Of a stretch of 64,000 nt of DNA, positions 29,601 through 45,737 are shown in pieces. Position 1 is the first letter of the stretch; each line of letters starts with the position of its first letter. This stretch comes from Candidatus Heimdallarchaeum endolithica. Its GTDB lineage: Archaea > Asgardarchaeota > Heimdallarchaeia > Heimdallarchaeales > Heimdallarchaeaceae. The DNA lies in the NCBI GenBank assembly GCA_021513715.1, contig CP084167.1:1504001-1568000 (forward strand), read 5' to 3'. Both the position numbers and the translations under genes were made by a program. The notes under the pieces were generated by a model that saw nothing but the letters and a program-made list of their open reading frames with translations, searched no databases and had not been told where the DNA came from.

Positions 29601-30128
29601 ATGCCTTATGACAAAATTCCTGTCTACATTTGTGATTTTCACACATGTAATCCAAAAAAATGTACAGCAAACAGAATACTTCGTTTCAACAAGGCTAAAG
29701 AAATTAAAAAAAGAGAAATTTCTAAATTTCAAATAGTTTTAACGCCCTTTTCAAGTATTGCTCTTTCTCAAGCAGATAAAAAACAAGCTATAAAACATGG
29801 GATAGTAGGCGTTGATTGCAGTTGGAACAACATAGAATCAGGAAAAGAAGCTTTAACTAAAGGAACTGGAAGAGCTTTACCATACCTTGTACCTGCAAAC
29901 CCTATAAACTATGGAAAGCCTACAAAATTAAGTACTTTAGAAGCAATAGCTTCTGCATTAATAATTTTAGGTAATATAAGACAAGCAGAAGAGATTTTAC
30001 AATTAGAGAAATGGGGATCTGAGTTCTATAAAATTAACAAAGAGTATCTTGATCTCTACTCTAAAGCAAAAACAAGCAAAGAAATAGTTCAAATTCAATC
30101 ACAGATTATTTCTAAACTGAGAAGATAA
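29601..30128 (+). CDS. tsr3: 16S rRNA aminocarboxypropyltransferase Tsr3 (DUF367)
   Basis: CNPKKCT, VDCSW, RALPYLVPANPINYGKP.KLSTLEA. Confidence 0.95.
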   Translation: MPYDKIPVYICDFHTCNPKKCTANRILRFNKAKEIKKREISKFQIVLTPFSSIALSQADKKQAIKHGIVGVDCSWNNIESGKEALTKGTGRALPYLVPANPINYGKPTKLSTLEAIASALIILGNIRQAEEILQLEKWGSEFYKINKEYLDLYSKAKTSKEIVQIQSQIISKLRR

Positions 30129-30241: not shown

Positions 30242-31363
30242 ATGAAAATAGGATTATGTTTTTTCCCTAAAGTTGGAGGTTCAGGGATCGCTGCAACTCA
30301 ACTAGCTATTGAATTTGCAAAAAAAGGACATGAAGTCGTCATTTTCACATATGATACACCATTCCTACTTAGACAATCAAGACATGAAAATATAAAATTA
30401 ATGCTTATTGATCTTGTTTCGTATCCTCTTTTCAAAGACATAGGATATCCTTACACAATTTCAAGTGCTAGCAAGTTTGTAGAAGTAATAACAAAAGAAA
30501 AACTTGATGTTTTAAACGTACATTATGCTATTCCAGCAGGTGTTTCTGCTTATTTGGCAAAAGAAATAACAGGTATCCCAGTAGGAATCACAGCTCATGG
30601 AAGCGACATTCACATCTTAGGGATTGATCCTGCTTACAATTCTGTTATGAGCCATGTTTTCAAAAAAACTGATGGGATTTCTACTGTTTCAAAATATATG
30701 AAAAAAGAGATCTTCAAAAACTTCTTAGAAGATAATAACAAGATCCATGTTATCTACAATCCGATTGATACTGAAAGGTTCAAAAACCAAGAAGTGATAC
30801 AATGTGACTTTAAAAAGTTGTACAACAACTATTTTATTCATGTTTCGAATTTCAGGAAAGTCAAAAATGCTCCCTTTATCGTAGAAGCTTTTTCAGAAGT
30901 AGTTAAAGAGAATAACGATGTTGGATTAATAATGGTTGGAGAAGGACCTGAAAGGAAAGACTGTGAGATCATTGCAAAAAATCTTGGAATTGAAGAACAT
31001 GTTTTATTTCAAGGAGTTAGATATAACCTTACACCACTTTACAGTTGTTCTTCTGCTTTAATAAGCGCAAGCGAGAATGAAAGTTTTGGTTTAACATTAG
31101 CTGAAGCGATGGCTTGTGAAACGCCTGTTATAGCTTCAAGAGTCGGAGGAATACCTGAAGTTGTAAAAGACAGAGAAACAGGTTTATTATATGATTATGG
31201 TAATAAAGAACAACTAGTGAAACATATGTTTACATTATTAGAAAATAAAGAATTAGCTAAGAAAATGGGTTTAAAAGGAAGAAAAAGAGTATTAGAGAAC
31301 TTCAGATTCGACAAAATTGCAGACCAATATATAAAATGGTATGAAACTCTAATCAAAAGATAA
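30242..31363 (+). CDS. bshA: N-acetyl-alpha-D-glucosaminyl L-malate synthase (GT4)
   Basis: CFFPKVGGSGIAATQLA, YPLF, HYAIP, HGSDI, HVSNFRKVK, ESFGL: BshA-specific pattern. Confidence 0.9.
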   Translation: MKIGLCFFPKVGGSGIAATQLAIEFAKKGHEVVIFTYDTPFLLRQSRHENIKLMLIDLVSYPLFKDIGYPYTISSASKFVEVITKEKLDVLNVHYAIPAGVSAYLAKEITGIPVGITAHGSDIHILGIDPAYNSVMSHVFKKTDGISTVSKYMKKEIFKNFLEDNNKIHVIYNPIDTERFKNQEVIQCDFKKLYNNYFIHVSNFRKVKNAPFIVEAFSEVVKENNDVGLIMVGEGPERKDCEIIAKNLGIEEHVLFQGVRYNLTPLYSCSSALISASENESFGLTLAEAMACETPVIASRVGGIPEVVKDRETGLLYDYGNKEQLVKHMFTLLENKELAKKMGLKGRKRVLENFRFDKIADQYIKWYETLIKR

Positions 31364-31400
31364 TTTTCTAAGTTGATTTTCACTTTTTTAGGGAAATCAA

Positions 31401-33035
31401 CTAGATATGAGTATTTAAGAATTGAATCCCACCTACAGGAGAGTATTTTGAATATTGACGTTTATAAGCTCTTAAATAATCTGACAAACCAGTTATACTG
31501 GCTAGACAGAACCAAGGATAACTAACTTCTTGCCAAGTTTTTTTACTATTATACATTCCCCATTGCCAAGATTTTAATAAGGAAACTTTTGAAGTTGGTG
31601 ATTCATTCACTTTTTTCATTTTTTCTAACTTTTCAAGTATCAGAGTTCTAAGATTTTTTGCATTTTCAAAAAGTCTGTCTTTTTCATTTTTCCTCTTCGC
31701 TTTTGACATTTGCCCAAGAAGTTTAAATAATTCTGGTTTAATTAAACTATATTCACCCAATTCTGGAGAGTTACTCATTTCTTCTATCCAATTGGAGTTA
31801 TAGACCATTCTTGTATATTTTAGTAATATAGGAAATCTCACGCCCACACGTCTAATTGCAGGGATAACCTGAGCATTATAATTTATTTCACCAGGTCCAG
31901 AAACTCTCAAATAAACAGGCATGACAGATTGAAATGTTGCTTGATTTGTATCTAATCTTGCTGCTAGATTTTTTGCATAGGGATCTAAATTCAATTGCTC
32001 TTTATCAATATCGAAGTGTATTTTTTGTCCGTCAAGTTTGCATTTTCCAGAAAATATTAGAGCATCTTTTTCTTCTTTGCATGATAAAACAACTCTATGT
32101 CCATTTTCACATTCATAGAAAAAGGGAGAATAACTATCTTCTTTTTTTGGAGTTGTAGGGCGAAAGCCTAAAGAAAGAAGTTTGTTAGAAGCTCTATTAA
32201 ACTCTTCAATATATTCAACCCTGTTTTTAAGAATAGGTTTGTATCCCTTTACAAGTAGTTCTCTAATTTCGGGATGTGATGTTGGAAACAATATTAATCC
32301 CCAATCGTTAATAATATTAGCTTGAACCCCATAAATTAAGGCAATCCAATCACCAAAAGAATAAGAAGAACGGTAAGTTTCTCTCATGAATGTGAGTATA
32401 TGTTCAACTCTCTCAAAAAACAGATTTTGTTTTTCTTTGGGTAGAAGAGAGCGAAATTCAAAAAATATGTTCTTTATTATCCCTAAATTCTCATTTAACC
32501 AATCAAACTTTTTCATTGGAATTGCAAAAGAGGCAATATTTTCTTGAATACCAGTTAAAGAAATAGGTTTAGTAAATGATGATTGAGCATTTGGTATGTG
32601 GATTGTTGCGATTTCTGGTTGGATTACATCATGTGTATTAACCAGAAAAACGGGTGATAAACGTCTTCCGTATTCATTACTTAATTCTGAAAGTGCGATT
32701 GTAGCAGCAATTTTATTCCCAATTAAACTTACCCCCCCAAAAATTGTTGCTTGTTGACCAGCTAGGACAACACCATTATTAATGTTATCAATATTGAATT
32801 TTACAGTTTCTGTAAGTAAACCTAATTTTTCATGATATGCTAGTAAAATTCTTTTTAGAGAGTCAATGGTTTTTTCTTCTATATATACTTCAGGAAGTTT
32901 ACTTGCTTTTTCCAAGGCTTCATGAAAATTTTTGGGTACATAATTATAAAAATACTCTAAATCTGGATTTTTTTTATCTTCCCAAATGTATGATGAATAT
33001 AAATCTCCTGCAGTATTCATTAAAAAATTAAACAA
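31401..33035 (-). CDS. bshC: Bacillithiol biosynthesis cysteine-adding enzyme BshC-like
   Basis: VLAGQQATIFGG, THD..EI, SGPGEINYNAQ motifs; 544 aa; convergent with bshA. Confidence 0.8.
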   Translation of the reverse strand: MFNFLMNTAGDLYSSYIWEDKKNPDLEYFYNYVPKNFHEALEKASKLPEVYIEEKTIDSLKRILLAYHEKLGLLTETVKFNIDNINNGVVLAGQQATIFGGVSLIGNKIAATIALSELSNEYGRRLSPVFLVNTHDVIQPEIATIHIPNAQSSFTKPISLTGIQENIASFAIPMKKFDWLNENLGIIKNIFFEFRSLLPKEKQNLFFERVEHILTFMRETYRSSYSFGDWIALIYGVQANIINDWGLILFPTSHPEIRELLVKGYKPILKNRVEYIEEFNRASNKLLSLGFRPTTPKKEDSYSPFFYECENGHRVVLSCKEEKDALIFSGKCKLDGQKIHFDIDKEQLNLDPYAKNLAARLDTNQATFQSVMPVYLRVSGPGEINYNAQVIPAIRRVGVRFPILLKYTRMVYNSNWIEEMSNSPELGEYSLIKPELFKLLGQMSKAKRKNEKDRLFENAKNLRTLILEKLEKMKKVNESPTSKVSLLKSWQWGMYNSKKTWQEVSYPWFCLASITGLSDYLRAYKRQYSKYSPVGGIQFLNTHI

Positions 33036-34347: not shown

Positions 34348-35357
34348 TGTTTACTCAATAGACTTGGGTTACACTTTTGGGTACTAGAGAAACATAGGGG
34401 TGATTCATAAATCTTTCTCCTGGGGTGAGGAAGTTAAGAGATTGGTGAGGACGACTAAAATTGTAGTAAGAGCGATAGTAGGAGAGGTCGGGGTTGCAGT
34501 ATTTTAGACCTAATCTTTCCATCTCACGGATGATTGTCCCATGTAGTCTTTCTACTTTTCCACATGTTTCAGGGTGAAAAACTCTAGCTCTGATGTGCTT
34601 TATTCCTTCTGTTTGACACCAACGGGAGAAGGTACTTGTTCCTCCTCTAACGGAAGAGAAGAGTGCTCCATTGTCAGTAAGTATAGACTCGGGGTAACCG
34701 TACTCTTTTATTGCTTCCTCTAGCAAACTTATTATCTGCTCTTTTTTTGGTGCAAAAGGGTGGAATTCAGCTCCCAGACAGAATCGTGAGTGGTCGTCTA
34801 TCAAGGTTATGAGGTGGAGATGTTGTCCCTGTTCTTCTACCCAGAATGGTCCTTTCACATCTATTTGCCAGAGTTCGTTAGGTTTTTGACGTTCAAAACT
34901 CTTGTATCGAGGTCTTTTCCTCTTTTTTCTATTAACCCATAAAGGAAGACCTAACTCTTTTATTACTTTCGTCACTGTCGTCTGAGAGAGTGCTTTTCCT
35001 TCTCTCTTCAACAAATAAGCTATCTTCTCCACATTCATTCCTTGTTTTATTCTTAACTCCCTTATCCTCTCTTTTAACTCCTCATCTACTTTCCTGTGTA
35101 TAGTTTTTGGTCTGGAAGATCTATCTTTCCACCATACTCCTTCAGGGTTCTCTCTGAACCTCTTCAACCACTTATACACAAACTTCCTACTCACCATATA
35201 CTTGTGAGCTACCTCTTTTATCTTCTCTCCTTCCAAAGCTTTTTTAACCACAATCTTTCTTAGTTTCTCCAGGTTACGTTCGTTTTTGTTCATAATATAT
35301 CACTTACCCACGTAACCCACTTCTATTTATTTGTTACCAATGTGAGTTGAGTATACA
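34348..35357 (-). mobile_element. Complete IS481-family insertion sequence (1010 bp)
   Basis: TGT...ACA termini with imperfect 26-bp IRs (19/26 match); flanked by the direct repeat gtacaattaaacgaat at 34332-34347 and 35358-35373. Confidence 0.93.
34355..35293 (-). CDS. IS481-family transposase (HTH plus rve DDE core)
   Basis: WQIDVK, IDDHSRF, LTDNG, GKVERLH, YNFSRPHQSL. Confidence 0.95.
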   Translation of the reverse strand: MNKNERNLEKLRKIVVKKALEGEKIKEVAHKYMVSRKFVYKWLKRFRENPEGVWWKDRSSRPKTIHRKVDEELKERIRELRIKQGMNVEKIAYLLKREGKALSQTTVTKVIKELGLPLWVNRKKRKRPRYKSFERQKPNELWQIDVKGPFWVEEQGQHLHLITLIDDHSRFCLGAEFHPFAPKKEQIISLLEEAIKEYGYPESILTDNGALFSSVRGGTSTFSRWCQTEGIKHIRARVFHPETCGKVERLHGTIIREMERLGLKYCNPDLSYYRSYYNFSRPHQSLNFLTPGERFMNHPYVSLVPKSVTQVY

Positions 35358-43989: not shown

Positions 43990-44640
43990 TTACAAAAGTG
44001 AATGTTTTGTTTTATAAAAAGGGCTTGTTTTTTTCAAGGGGACCTCCAAAAATGCTTCTGCAAACTCCACTTGTGCTTGTGTACCTCTCATTTTTGTTCT
44101 ATACTTATGAAACTCGATATAGAAATTATTTCCTCCTTTGTCGAGCTGAGAACTATAACATTTCATAGCTTTTTCTTTTACTTCAACAAAATCTGAAATG
44201 TCAACAATTACATGAGGATTCGACAATAGAACAGTCGTTTCAGTGAAGTAAAGCTTAGAAACAACAAATGAGTTTGAATACTGTGTTTCATGTGCTGCCC
44301 ATTCTATTGCCTCTTTAACCATAGAACTTGTTAAACGATGTTCAACGTGATAATCATCATCCATATGGGTCACTATTATTTCAGGACGATAAGTGAGAAT
44401 AAATTCAATAATTTGATTTTTTATTTCTACTTCATTATTTTCTATTTCTTTATAATTTAGGATTATTGCTTTTTTAACGTTCAGAATCTTTGTAGCTTCT
44501 ATGTATTCTTTTCTTCTTACCCCATTTGAAGTTAAACAAAGCGAATACACATCATTTCCCAAAGCGGAATAGCGAGCAATAGTTCCCCCTGTACTAAAAC
44601 TTTCATCATCAGGGTGCGCAAAAATAAAGGCAATGTTCAT
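43990..44640 (-). CDS. PIG-L/LmbE-family deacetylase (BshB-like)
   Basis: AHPDDE, RRKE, H..DYHVEH, VDIS...K..A..CYSSQ, RG....VEFAEAF. Confidence 0.88.
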   Translation of the reverse strand: MNIAFIFAHPDDESFSTGGTIARYSALGNDVYSLCLTSNGVRRKEYIEATKILNVKKAIILNYKEIENNEVEIKNQIIEFILTYRPEIIVTHMDDDYHVEHRLTSSMVKEAIEWAAHETQYSNSFVVSKLYFTETTVLLSNPHVIVDISDFVEVKEKAMKCYSSQLDKGGNNFYIEFHKYRTKMRGTQAQVEFAEAFLEVPLKKTSPFYKTKHSLL

Positions 44641-44693: not shown

Positions 44694-45737
44694 TTATTTT
44701 TTGTTGATATAGTTTACTGCATTAATTCCAGCCTTGTATCCTTCACCCATTAATATTGCACAATAATCTTCTTCTCCTGTTATTACTCCTGCTGCAAAAA
44801 TCCCTGGAATGGTTGTTTCTTTTTTACTATTTGTCACTAAAAATCCTTCTTCATTAATTTTTATATCGAGTTCTTTCAACATTGAGAGATCAGGCTTATC
44901 TTTTAATTCTATAAAAACTGCATTTACTGAAAGTTCTTTTTCTTCTCCATCTTCAACAAATTTTATTCCAGTTACAAACTGTGTTCCTACTACTTCAACT
45001 TTTGATAGATCAATTCCATATTTTATTTTTACATTTGGGGATTTTTCTAATTTTTTCATAAAACGCTTGTCAATGTCAAGAGTAGAAGATGGACAAATAA
45101 CAGTGACTTTTCTGCAATATTTTCTCAAGAAAAGAGCTCCTCTTGCTGCAAAATTATCCTTTCCAATAATACAAACTTTTTTTCCTCTGAACAAAGCCCC
45201 GTCACATACTGCACAATAAGAAAGGCCCTGACTTTCAAATTCTTCTTCTCCTTTAATTGCCCCTTTTAATTCTGGGAGATCATAAGCGAGGATTACAGCT
45301 TTCGCTCTAATTGTTTCTCCTTCTTCAGTTACTAAAACAAAGTTTTCTTCTTCTTTCTTAATCTTTGAAATTTTCTCTTCTTCAATTTCAATTCTTTTTC
45401 CTTTCATTTCTAAATTGTCATTTTGCTCTTCAGAAGATGAAAAAGAAGAAATATACTCGTTGTTAAACTTTTCAATTTGCCCTAAAATCTGAACAATATA
45501 GTCAACTCCTACTACACTTTCAATTCCAGGGATCGTATCAATAGTTCCTTTTTTTGCTGTAATAGTATTATAGGGTATCCCAAAAAGTTTTACTTTAAGG
45601 TCAGGGTTTTTTGAATAAGCAGCTATTGCAGCTGATAATCCTGTTAATCCTGAACCAATTATAACTAAATCAATAGTCCCATCTTTTTTGTTCATATAAG
45701 TAGTAAACACAGAATTAAAAATAAAGTTAACTGTCAT
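44694..45737 (-). CDS. Thioredoxin reductase-like flavoprotein with atypical NAD(P)H site
   Basis: IIGSGLTGLSAA FAD motif, GLSYCAVCDG redox motif, TTIPGIFAAG; probable start at 45695. Confidence 0.85.
   Translation of the reverse strand: MTVNFIFNSVFTTYMNKKDGTIDLVIIGSGLTGLSAAIAAYSKNPDLKVKLFGIPYNTITAKKGTIDTIPGIESVVGVDYIVQILGQIEKFNNEYISSFSSSEEQNDNLEMKGKRIEIEEEKISKIKKEEENFVLVTEEGETIRAKAVILAYDLPELKGAIKGEEEFESQGLSYCAVCDGALFRGKKVCIIGKDNFAARGALFLRKYCRKVTVICPSSTLDIDKRFMKKLEKSPNVKIKYGIDLSKVEVVGTQFVTGIKFVEDGEEKELSVNAVFIELKDKPDLSMLKELDIKINEEGFLVTNSKKETTIPGIFAAGVITGEEDYCAILMGEGYKAGINAVNYINKK

What the first reader, a model, noticed from the sequence alone, without database searches (positions are those of the whole stretch)
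30242..33035. Apparently complete bacillithiol biosynthesis in an Asgard-like archaeon
Seen: convergent bshA and bshC-like genes, plus a PIG-L deacetylase (BshB-like) at 43990..44640. Known: BshA, BshB and BshC make bacillithiol, characterised in bacteria such as Firmicutes and Deinococcus; I know of no biochemical demonstration in archaea. The BshC-like protein is divergent and has a 'CENGH...C...CKLD' segment that may bind metal. Base composition looks like the host, suggesting an old acquisition. Inference: this organism uses bacillithiol or a variant as its low-molecular-weight thiol.
Basis: partly seen in the sequence, partly recalled or inferred. Interest (0 to 1): 0.72.

Follow-up and report, generated by a model that had tools for sequence, protein, structure and literature searches.

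The report
Archaeal-type bacillithiol pathway genes in Heimdallarchaeum
This Asgard archaeon carries intact genes for all three steps that bacteria use to make the protective thiol bacillithiol, two of them in a deeply diverged archaeal form. The presence of such genes in Asgard archaea was already noted in a 2020 review, and the compound has never been detected in any archaeon.

Summary
The window has a convergent bshA (30242-31363, +) and BshC-like gene (31401-33020, -), plus a PIG-L deacetylase (43990-44640, -). All are intact and have the host's GC content. The genome is a Ca. Heimdallarchaeum (Heimdallarchaeaceae).

BshA passes NCBI's equivalog cut-off. The other two proteins do not. The BshC-like protein belongs to a separate archaeal clade: it has the BshC fold and shares core motifs, but carries an added zinc ribbon.

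Gene context is the main support for one pathway. bshA and bshC-like are neighbours in more than 100 Asgard genomes of at least six families, in two different arrangements. The ortholog of this window's PIG-L completes a three-gene cluster in other families and in Bathyarchaeia-labelled contigs, where DinB/MST-type thiol-transferase genes sit next to bshA.

In all 29 sampled genomes of the family besides the window's own, the PIG-L gene lies directly downstream of a divergent thioredoxin-reductase-like gene.

Most likely product: bacillithiol or a near variant (about 0.65). Caveats:
- no bacilliredoxin, YtxJ or YpdA was found;
- some Asgard families keep the BshC-like gene without bshA;
- the BshC reaction has not been reconstituted in vitro, by a 2018 review.

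Rawat and Maupin-Furlow (2020) and NCBI annotation had already flagged these genes.

The parts
30242..31363 (+). bshA: GT4 retaining glycosyltransferase, predicted UDP-GlcNAc:L-malate N-acetylglucosaminyltransferase
   Evidence: TIGR03999 gives 337.4 bits, above the 273.7 cut-off. It aligns end to end with solved BshA structures: 2jjm/3mbo at E 2e-75 and 5d00 at E 3e-69. Homologs are named BshA by NCBI and JGI.
31401..33020 (-). bshC-like: archaeal-type member of the BshC superfamily, predicted amino-acid (Cys) ligase acting on GlcN-malate. The ORF is open up to a TTG at 33035, but homologs start at the ATG at 33020.
   Evidence: PF10079 gives 86.4 bits, above the gathering score. TIGR03998 gives 85.7 bits, below the 265.8 cut-off. 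The AF2 model has pLDDT 87.8 and pTM 0.91; its best PDB match is 4wbd, BshC, at E 2e-19 and TM 0.69. Trees place it in a separate clade. It is adjacent to bshA in more than 100 Asgard genomes.
32031..32111 (-). Degenerate zinc-ribbon segment of the BshC-like protein (C304, H308, C314, C327, D330)
   Evidence: C304 and C327 are invariant in 29 of 29 clade representatives, and position 330 is Cys in 27 of 29. A second N-terminal Cys is present in most representatives. The window's family has lost two of the four Cys.
43990..44640 (-). PIG-L/LmbE-type deacetylase, the archaeal-type BshB candidate (GlcNAc-malate to GlcN-malate)
   Evidence: PF02585 gives 81.7 bits. BshB1 (87.4) and BshB2 (66.9) are below their cut-offs. 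It is 37-45% identical to the PIG-L genes clustered with bshA in families f2, f11 and f17, and 41% identical to the Bathyarchaeia one. The genome's second PIG-L is only about 25% identical to them. The AHPDDE and HxxH motifs are kept.
44694..45737 (-). Divergent thioredoxin-reductase-like flavoprotein (CAVC active site), directly upstream of the PIG-L gene; a candidate reductase of the pathway's thiol system (inferred)
   Evidence: TIGR01292 gives 192 bits, below the 343 cut-off. A CAVC motif is present. The gene pair is conserved in all 29 sampled family genomes besides the window's own. The closest solved structure is 3cty.

Best explanation
The window, from a Ca. Heimdallarchaeum genome, encodes an archaeal version of the three-step bacillithiol pathway.

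1. BshA joins GlcNAc from UDP-GlcNAc to L-malate.
2. The PIG-L zinc deacetylase removes the acetyl group to give GlcN-malate.
3. The BshC-like enzyme acylates the free amine with cysteine, giving Cys-GlcN-malate (bacillithiol) or a close variant. This enzyme has a Rossmann fold related to class I tRNA synthetases.

The thioredoxin-reductase-like gene co-transcribed with the deacetylase may help keep the thiol system reduced.

Shown here: gene identity, protein fold, conserved motifs, clade structure, and conserved gene clustering. Inferred: the substrates, the product, and the role of the reductase. The activated cysteine donor was still unknown for bacterial BshC in the 2018 review I read.
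For: - BshA passes the curated equivalog cut-off and aligns full-length with solved BshA structures.
- The BshC-like protein has the BshC fold over its whole length. It shares the residues that are invariant across both clades: Q90, K103, D131, G375. It also shares the near-invariant GPGE..Y, R309 and QE motifs.
- Of 301 Asgard genomes sampled, 134 have BshA over the cut-off and 169 have a BshC-like gene.
- In families f1, f2, f4, f11, f17 and f22 the two genes are adjacent, in two different arrangements: convergent, or a co-directional bshA-bshC-like pair with a 25-45 nt gap.
- The ortholog of the window's PIG-L completes a three-gene cluster in f2, f4, f11 and f17. It does the same in Bathyarchaeia-labelled contigs, where two DinB_2/MST genes directly precede bshA. 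The DinB/STL superfamily includes bacillithiol transferases (PMC5815605).
- Family f6, in the same class, has a canonical bshC-bshB1-bshA operon with all three genes over their cut-offs and no archaeal-type copy. This fits functional equivalence.
- The TrxR-like and PIG-L gene pair is conserved in all 29 sampled family genomes besides the window's own.
- The genome holds one DinB-family gene.
Against: - The BshC-like protein and the PIG-L both fail their equivalog cut-offs. Canonical BshC representatives score 440-575 bits, while the archaeal clade scores 0-86 bits.
- No bacilliredoxin (PF06491), YtxJ or YpdA over the cut-off was found in a genome estimated 92.6% complete.
- Families f5, f7, f14 and f27 keep a BshC-like gene. 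BshA was not found in them in the phylum scan, and in five f5 genomes no ortholog of this PIG-L was found either. The enzyme is therefore not always tied to GlcN-malate.
- The sister clade of the archaeal type lies in glycan gene clusters.
- The zinc ribbon is degenerate in this family.
- Bacillithiol has never been detected in an archaeon (PMC7278568).
- The BshC reaction had not been reconstituted in vitro as of 2018 (PMC5790435), so Cys specificity cannot be read from sequence.
Confidence: 0.65

Rival explanations
1. The module makes a related but different compound. BshA and the deacetylase produce GlcN-malate, but the archaeal BshC-like enzyme adds a different amino acid, or the product is further modified (for example N-methylated). 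The cellular thiol or metabolite would then not be bacillithiol itself.
For: The BshC-like clade is separated from canonical BshC by a long, fully supported branch and carries an extra zinc ribbon. The PIG-L is also outside the BshB1 and BshB2 equivalogs. None of the known bacillithiol-specific redox partners was found. N-methyl-bacillithiol exists in bacteria (PMC12719100).
Against: BshA is a clear equivalog. The core motifs of BshC are kept. DinB/MST genes sit next to the cluster in Bathyarchaeia-labelled contigs, which points to a thiol. The canonical operon replaces the archaeal type in family f6.
Confidence: 0.2
2. The BshC-like ligase and the PIG-L deacetylase work on a cell-envelope or glycan sugar (deacetylation followed by aminoacylation of an amino sugar), not on a soluble thiol. 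The link to bshA would be incidental, or would serve glycan decoration.
For: The sister clade of BshC-like proteins lies among PIG-L, WbqC, GT2, DegT aminotransferase, ATP-grasp and flippase genes. Some Asgard families keep the BshC-like gene without bshA.
Against: In the BshA-linked subclade the cluster holds only bshA, PIG-L and bshC-like. No flippase, polymerase or lipid-carrier genes were seen in the loci examined. The window's protein lies in that subclade.
Confidence: 0.08
3. Only BshA is functional in the classical sense, for example making GlcNAc-malate for some other use. The BshC-like protein would have a function unrelated to BshA.
For: BshC-like genes persist without BshA in f5, f7, f14 and f27. 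In f5 and f11 the gene sits next to a conserved PLP aminotransferase.
Against: Tight bshA/bshC-like adjacency is kept in more than 100 genomes in two independent arrangements, with the PIG-L joining them in several families. This is hard to explain without a shared pathway.
Confidence: 0.05

Closest known systems
Bacterial bacillithiol biosynthesis BshA/BshB/BshC (Bacillus subtilis, Deinococcus radiodurans; NCBIfam TIGR03999, TIGR04001/TIGR04000, TIGR03998; PDB 5d00, 3mbo, 4wbd)
   Same: It has the same three enzyme types in the same logical order. BshA is an equivalog-level match. The BshC fold and core motifs are shared. The deacetylase is a PIG-L enzyme with the zinc-ligand motifs. The genes are clustered, as they often are in bacteria.
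   Different: The BshC-like protein and the deacetylase belong to separate archaeal clades that fail the equivalog cut-offs. The BshC-like clade carries a Cys4 zinc ribbon, degenerate in this family, which most bacterial BshC lack. No BrxA/B, BrxC (YtxJ) or Bdr (YpdA) was found. The product has not been shown.
Mycothiol biosynthesis MshA/MshB/MshC (Actinobacteria)
   Same: The chemical logic is the same: GT4 glycosyltransferase, then PIG-L deacetylase, then Cys ligation onto the glucosamine amine by a class-I-synthetase-like enzyme. From my own recollection, untested here, MshC and CysRS use zinc to bind cysteine.
   Different: The window's GT4 scores 87 bits on MshA against a cut-off of 462.5, and the PIG-L scores 50 bits on MshB against 224. 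The ligase is BshC-like, not CysRS-like. No MshD-type acetyltransferase was looked for.
Canonical bshC-bshB1-bshA operon of another Heimdallarchaeia family (f6; loci L040, L041)
   Same: It lies in the same archaeal class and has the same three steps.
   Different: All three f6 proteins pass the bacterial equivalog cut-offs, and the f6 BshC nests inside the canonical clade. That is a bacterial-type copy, whereas the window has the archaeal type.

Membership tests
[quoted passage not shown] | Score above the curated equivalog cut-off | tested here: met
   337.4 bits against 273.7. It is the only one of 7 GT4 matches in the genome that is over the cut-off.
[quoted passage not shown] | Full-length similarity to biochemically and structurally characterised BshA | tested here: met
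   2jjm/3mbo at E 2e-75 over residues 1-368; 5d00 at E 3e-69.
[quoted passage not shown] | Uses L-malate as acceptor | not testable with these tools
   This needs an enzyme assay. The structural papers that list the malate-binding residues were not held.
BshC (TIGR03998, bacillithiol cysteine-adding enzyme) | Score above the curated equivalog cut-off | tested here: not met
   85.7 bits against 265.8. Canonical representatives score 440-575 bits, other members of the archaeal clade 0-73 bits.
BshC (TIGR03998, bacillithiol cysteine-adding enzyme) | BshC fold and Pfam Rossmann-like_BshC domain | tested here: met
   PF10079 gives 86.4 bits against a gathering score of 27. Foldseek's top hit is 4wbd at E 2e-19 and TM 0.69.
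BshC (TIGR03998, bacillithiol cysteine-adding enzyme) | Membership of the canonical BshC clade in a tree | tested here: not met
   A separate clade, split from canonical BshC with support 100 in both FastTree and IQ-TREE.
BshC (TIGR03998, bacillithiol cysteine-adding enzyme) | Co-occurrence and co-localisation with bshA (how bshC was first identified, PMC5790435) | tested here: met
   Adjacent to bshA in families f1, f2, f4, f11, f17 and f22, more than 100 genomes. This is not met in f5, f7, f14 and f27.
BshC (TIGR03998, bacillithiol cysteine-adding enzyme) | Adds cysteine to GlcN-malate | not testable with these tools
   As of 2018 the activity had not been reconstituted even for bacterial BshC (PMC5790435).
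BshB1/BshB2 (TIGR04001/TIGR04000) | Score above the curated equivalog cut-off | tested here: not met
   87.4 bits against 182.5, and 66.9 bits against 195.25. The PIG-L genes clustered with bshA in f11 and f17 score about the same, around 95 bits.
BshB1/BshB2 (TIGR04001/TIGR04000) | PIG-L fold with the His/Asp/His zinc-ligand motifs | tested here: met
   PF02585 gives 81.7 bits. AHPDDE and H-x-x-H align with the HPDD and HPDH motifs of the f6 BshB1. The ligands are as listed in PMC5790435.
BshB1/BshB2 (TIGR04001/TIGR04000) | Genomic link to bshA | tested here: met
   Orthologs lie next to bshA in f2, f4, f11, f17 and Bathyarchaeia-labelled contigs. In the window's family the gene lies 11-25 kb from bshA where both are on one contig.
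Bacillithiol redox system (BrxA/B, BrxC/YtxJ, Bdr/YpdA) | Presence of bacilliredoxins and the YpdA-type disulfide reductase | tested here: not met
   PF06491 has no match. TIGR04019 gives 17.6 bits, not significant. The best TIGR04018 match is 73 bits against a cut-off of 339.9. The genome is estimated 92.6% complete.

The most novel reading that the evidence does not exclude
The zinc-ribbon BshC-like proteins are an old, mainly archaeal family of amino-acid:amino-sugar ligases, found in Asgard archaea and in Bathyarchaeia-labelled contigs and distinct from bacterial BshC. Together with BshA and their own PIG-L clade they would make the main low-molecular-weight thiol of Heimdall- and Thor-type Asgard archaea, which may or may not be bacillithiol. 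A dedicated thioredoxin-reductase-like enzyme with an altered nucleotide site would serve it in place of Bdr and the bacilliredoxins. A BshA-independent subclade would have taken on a different, unknown substrate.
Probability: 0.3. Interest if true: 0.65.

Novelty: new variant of a known kind. Interest (0 to 1): 0.42.

Why it matters
No low-molecular-weight thiol has been measured in Asgard archaea, the closest known relatives of eukaryotes, and bacillithiol has never been detected in any archaeon. These genes give a concrete candidate that can be tested by heterologous expression.

The chemistry of BshC is an open problem: by a 2018 review the reaction had never been reconstituted. A second, deeply diverged clade with a zinc ribbon, and a sister clade in glycan clusters, offer new proteins and new context to attack that problem.

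The basic genomic prediction is not new. It is in a 2020 review and in public annotation, so the added value here is the anatomy of the archaeal variant, not its discovery.

Tried and rejected
- **Malate-binding residues of BshA.** I wanted to check these, but the structural papers (PMC5954418, PMC2943542) and the BshC structure paper (PMC4303302) are not held. The equivalog score and the full-length alignment stand in for that test.
- **A second TrxR-like gene as a shared pathway partner.** One lies next to bshC-like in family f2, genus g6. Its best match in the window's genome is the window's TrxR-like gene, but at only 26-30% identity. It lies beside hydantoinase/oxoprolinase genes that may be its real partners. 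I do not count it as evidence.
- **The genome's second PIG-L** (G000:C1:1712509-1713219). It is rejected as the pathway deacetylase, being only about 25% identical to the PIG-L genes clustered with bshA.
- **DinB-type genes near the Asgard clusters.** None was found in the loci fetched.
- **Literature searches.** No paper was found on a zinc ribbon in BshC, on bacillithiol genes in Bathyarchaeia, or on bsh genes in Heimdallarchaeum.
- **NmbA (bacillithiol N-methyltransferase).** Not searched, because I had no family accession or held sequence.
Full report
**What is there.** The window is G000:C1:1504001-1568000 of a single-contig genome of 3.33 Mb with 30.9% GC. The same-genus genome is CP084166.1, Ca. 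Heimdallarchaeum aukensis PM71. NCBI labels the closest BshC-like homologs Heimdallarchaeaceae. The window is therefore from a Ca. Heimdallarchaeum, an Asgard archaeon.

- bshA at 30242-31363 (+);
- a BshC-like ORF at 31401-33035 (-), whose likely start is the ATG at 33020 because all aligned homologs begin there;
- a PIG-L gene at 43990-44640 (-).

Gene GC is 0.31-0.33, like the genome.

**Family tests.** BshA passes NCBI's equivalog cut-off (337.4 against 273.7 bits). It aligns over its whole length with the solved B. anthracis and B. subtilis BshA structures.

The BshC-like protein passes Pfam PF10079 but scores only 85.7 bits on TIGR03998, whose cut-off is 265.8. An AlphaFold model built on 25 homologs is confident (pLDDT 87.8, pTM 0.91). 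Its best PDB match is B. subtilis BshC, 4wbd (E 2e-19, TM 0.69), followed by class I lysyl-tRNA synthetase.

The PIG-L scores 87 bits on BshB1 and 67 bits on BshB2, both below their cut-offs.

**A separate archaeal clade of BshC.** I ran a profile of the Heimdall proteins against 1.84 billion representative proteins. It found the archaeal clade first. After a gap came the canonical BshC proteins, at E 4e-18 and weaker.

Canonical representatives score 440-575 bits on TIGR03998, while the other members of the archaeal clade that I scanned score 0-73 bits. FastTree and IQ-TREE (LG+C20) both split canonical BshC from the rest with support 100. The rest consists of the archaeal type plus a small sister clade.

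Both sides share Q90, K103, D131 and G375, and the near-invariant GPGE..Y, R309 and QE motifs. The catalytic core therefore looks conserved.

**The Cys/His segment.** Among the 29 archaeal-type representatives:
- C304 and C327 are invariant;
- position 330 is Cys in 27;
- most carry a second Cys a few residues after C304.

This is a Cys4 zinc ribbon of the form C-x(1-4)-C ... C-x2-C. It is absent from most canonical BshC but present in the sister clade. In Heimdallarchaeaceae two of the four Cys are lost. The window's protein has C304, H308, C314, C327 and D330, and H308 and C314 vary within the family. Whether it still binds metal is open.

**Gene context.** I sampled 301 Asgard genomes. BshC-like genes occur in 169 of them and BshA over the cut-off in 134. 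The two genes are neighbours in families f1, f2, f4, f11, f17 and f22:
- convergent in the window's family f1, with gaps of about 10-50 nt, and in f17;
- a co-directional bshA-bshC-like pair with a 25-45 nt gap in more than 55 genomes of f11.

The window's PIG-L is 37-45% identical to PIG-L genes that lie directly beside bshA in f2, f4, f11 and f17. The genome's other PIG-L is only about 25% identical to them. In family f1 this gene has moved away from the bsh pair: 11 kb in the window, and 11-25 kb in the relatives where both lie on one contig.

Contigs that NCBI labels Bathyarchaeia carry the same archaeal-type trio. There, two DinB_2/MST genes sit directly upstream of bshA. That superfamily includes bacillithiol transferases (PMC5815605).

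Family f6, of the window's own class, instead has a bshC-bshB1-bshA operon in which all three proteins pass the bacterial cut-offs. It has no archaeal-type copy. This looks like replacement of one version of the pathway by the other.

**A linked reductase-like gene.** Directly upstream of the PIG-L gene lies a thioredoxin-reductase-like gene (44694-45737). It has the CAVC active site but scores only 192 bits on TIGR01292. The pair is kept in all 29 other sampled genomes of the family. The genome also has two near-canonical thioredoxin reductases. A role in reducing the pathway's thiol is an inference only.

**What argues for caution.**
- No bacilliredoxin, YtxJ or YpdA was found.
- Families f5, f7, f14 and f27 keep a BshC-like gene while BshA was not found in them in the phylum scan. 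The f5 proteins I read have an intact ribbon, and five f5 genomes also lack an ortholog of this PIG-L.
- The sister clade lies in glycan gene clusters with PIG-L, WbqC, GT2 and DegT genes. The superfamily's general chemistry is therefore probably aminoacylation of a deacetylated amino sugar, and the acceptor can differ.

**Known or new.** Rawat and Maupin-Furlow (2020, PMC7278568, section 13) report 39 archaeal InterPro hits each for BshA and BshC, mostly Asgard. They suggest that archaea may make bacillithiol. NCBI and JGI already name these proteins BshA and BshC. A 2025 BLAST survey with strict thresholds found no archaeon with the full pathway (PMC12719100). The divergence shown here would explain that result.

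In the papers I could search, I found nothing on the following:
- the separate clade and its zinc ribbon;
- the archaeal BshB clade and the three-gene cluster;
- the two pathway versions within one class;
- the BshA-independent subclade;
- the reductase-like partner.

**Verdict.**
A conserved three-step module very probably makes bacillithiol or a close variant (about 0.65, with 0.2 for a different product).
- It is a variant of a known system. Its presence in Asgard archaea was already published as a genomic inference, so the interest is moderate.

Noticed in passing
window 44694-45737 (-): The TrxR-like protein has the CAVC redox site. Where the closest solved enzyme (3cty, Thermoplasma TrxR) has 'IGGGNSG', it reads 'IGKDNFA'. 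It also has an insertion of about 45 residues (roughly residues 90-135). The nucleotide-binding site may be altered, so the electron donor is uncertain.
   Followed up: partly
L040:6162-9564 and L041:8709-12139 (family f6, same class): A bacterial-type bshC-bshB1-bshA operon in which all three genes are over the NCBIfam cut-offs. Its BshC nests inside the canonical clade. This looks like a separate, probably bacterial-derived, copy of the pathway in another Heimdallarchaeia family.
   Followed up: partly
L038:8155-11135, L039:7454-10430, L035:6323-9350, L036:9090-12136; own genome G000:C1:1770807-1772060: A fold-type-I PLP aminotransferase is convergent with bshC-like in both f5 (which lacks bshA) and f11. 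The two are 55% identical across classes, and no NCBIfam model reaches its cut-off. The window's genome has the ortholog about 234 kb away. The meaning of this pairing is unknown.
   Followed up: partly
L043, L044, L045 (metagenome contigs): A sister clade of zinc-ribbon BshC-like proteins sits among PIG-L (two copies), WbqC, GT2, DegT aminotransferase, ATP-grasp and polysaccharide-flippase genes. One contig carries ribosomal protein S26e, so that contig is archaeal. The genes are likely glycan aminoacylation enzymes.
   Followed up: partly
L079 and L080 (L080 = GCA_026394265.1, JAPKYO010000046.1): Contigs labelled Bathyarchaeia carry the archaeal-type cluster: two DinB_2/MST genes, then bshA, convergent with a 4-Cys bshC-like gene and a PIG-L. 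The module is therefore not confined to Asgard archaea.
   Followed up: partly
window 29601-30128 (+); L032:5040-5594; L033:14693-15226: A Tsr3/DUF367 (16S rRNA aminocarboxypropyltransferase-like) gene lies next to bshA in the window and in f2 genomes. This is probably retained synteny and not a functional link.
   Followed up: no
L032:6747-9315, L033:7301-13263: In genus g6 of family f2, hydantoinase/oxoprolinase A and B genes and another divergent TrxR-like gene (CAVC) are inserted between bshA and bshC-like.
   Followed up: partly
G000:C1:1712509-1713219 (L002:1486-2196): A second PIG-L paralog in the genome scores 94 bits on BshB1. It is not orthologous to the PIG-L genes clustered with bshA. 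Its function is unknown.
   Followed up: partly
window 34355-35293 (-): An IS481-family transposase gene (232 bits, over its cut-off) lies 1.3 kb from the bshC-like gene.
   Followed up: no
G000:C1:3300849-3301271: The genome's single DinB/DinB_2-family gene (157-aa open frame) is a possible thiol S-transferase. It is only 25% identical to the Bathyarchaeia DinB gene next to that cluster.
   Followed up: partly
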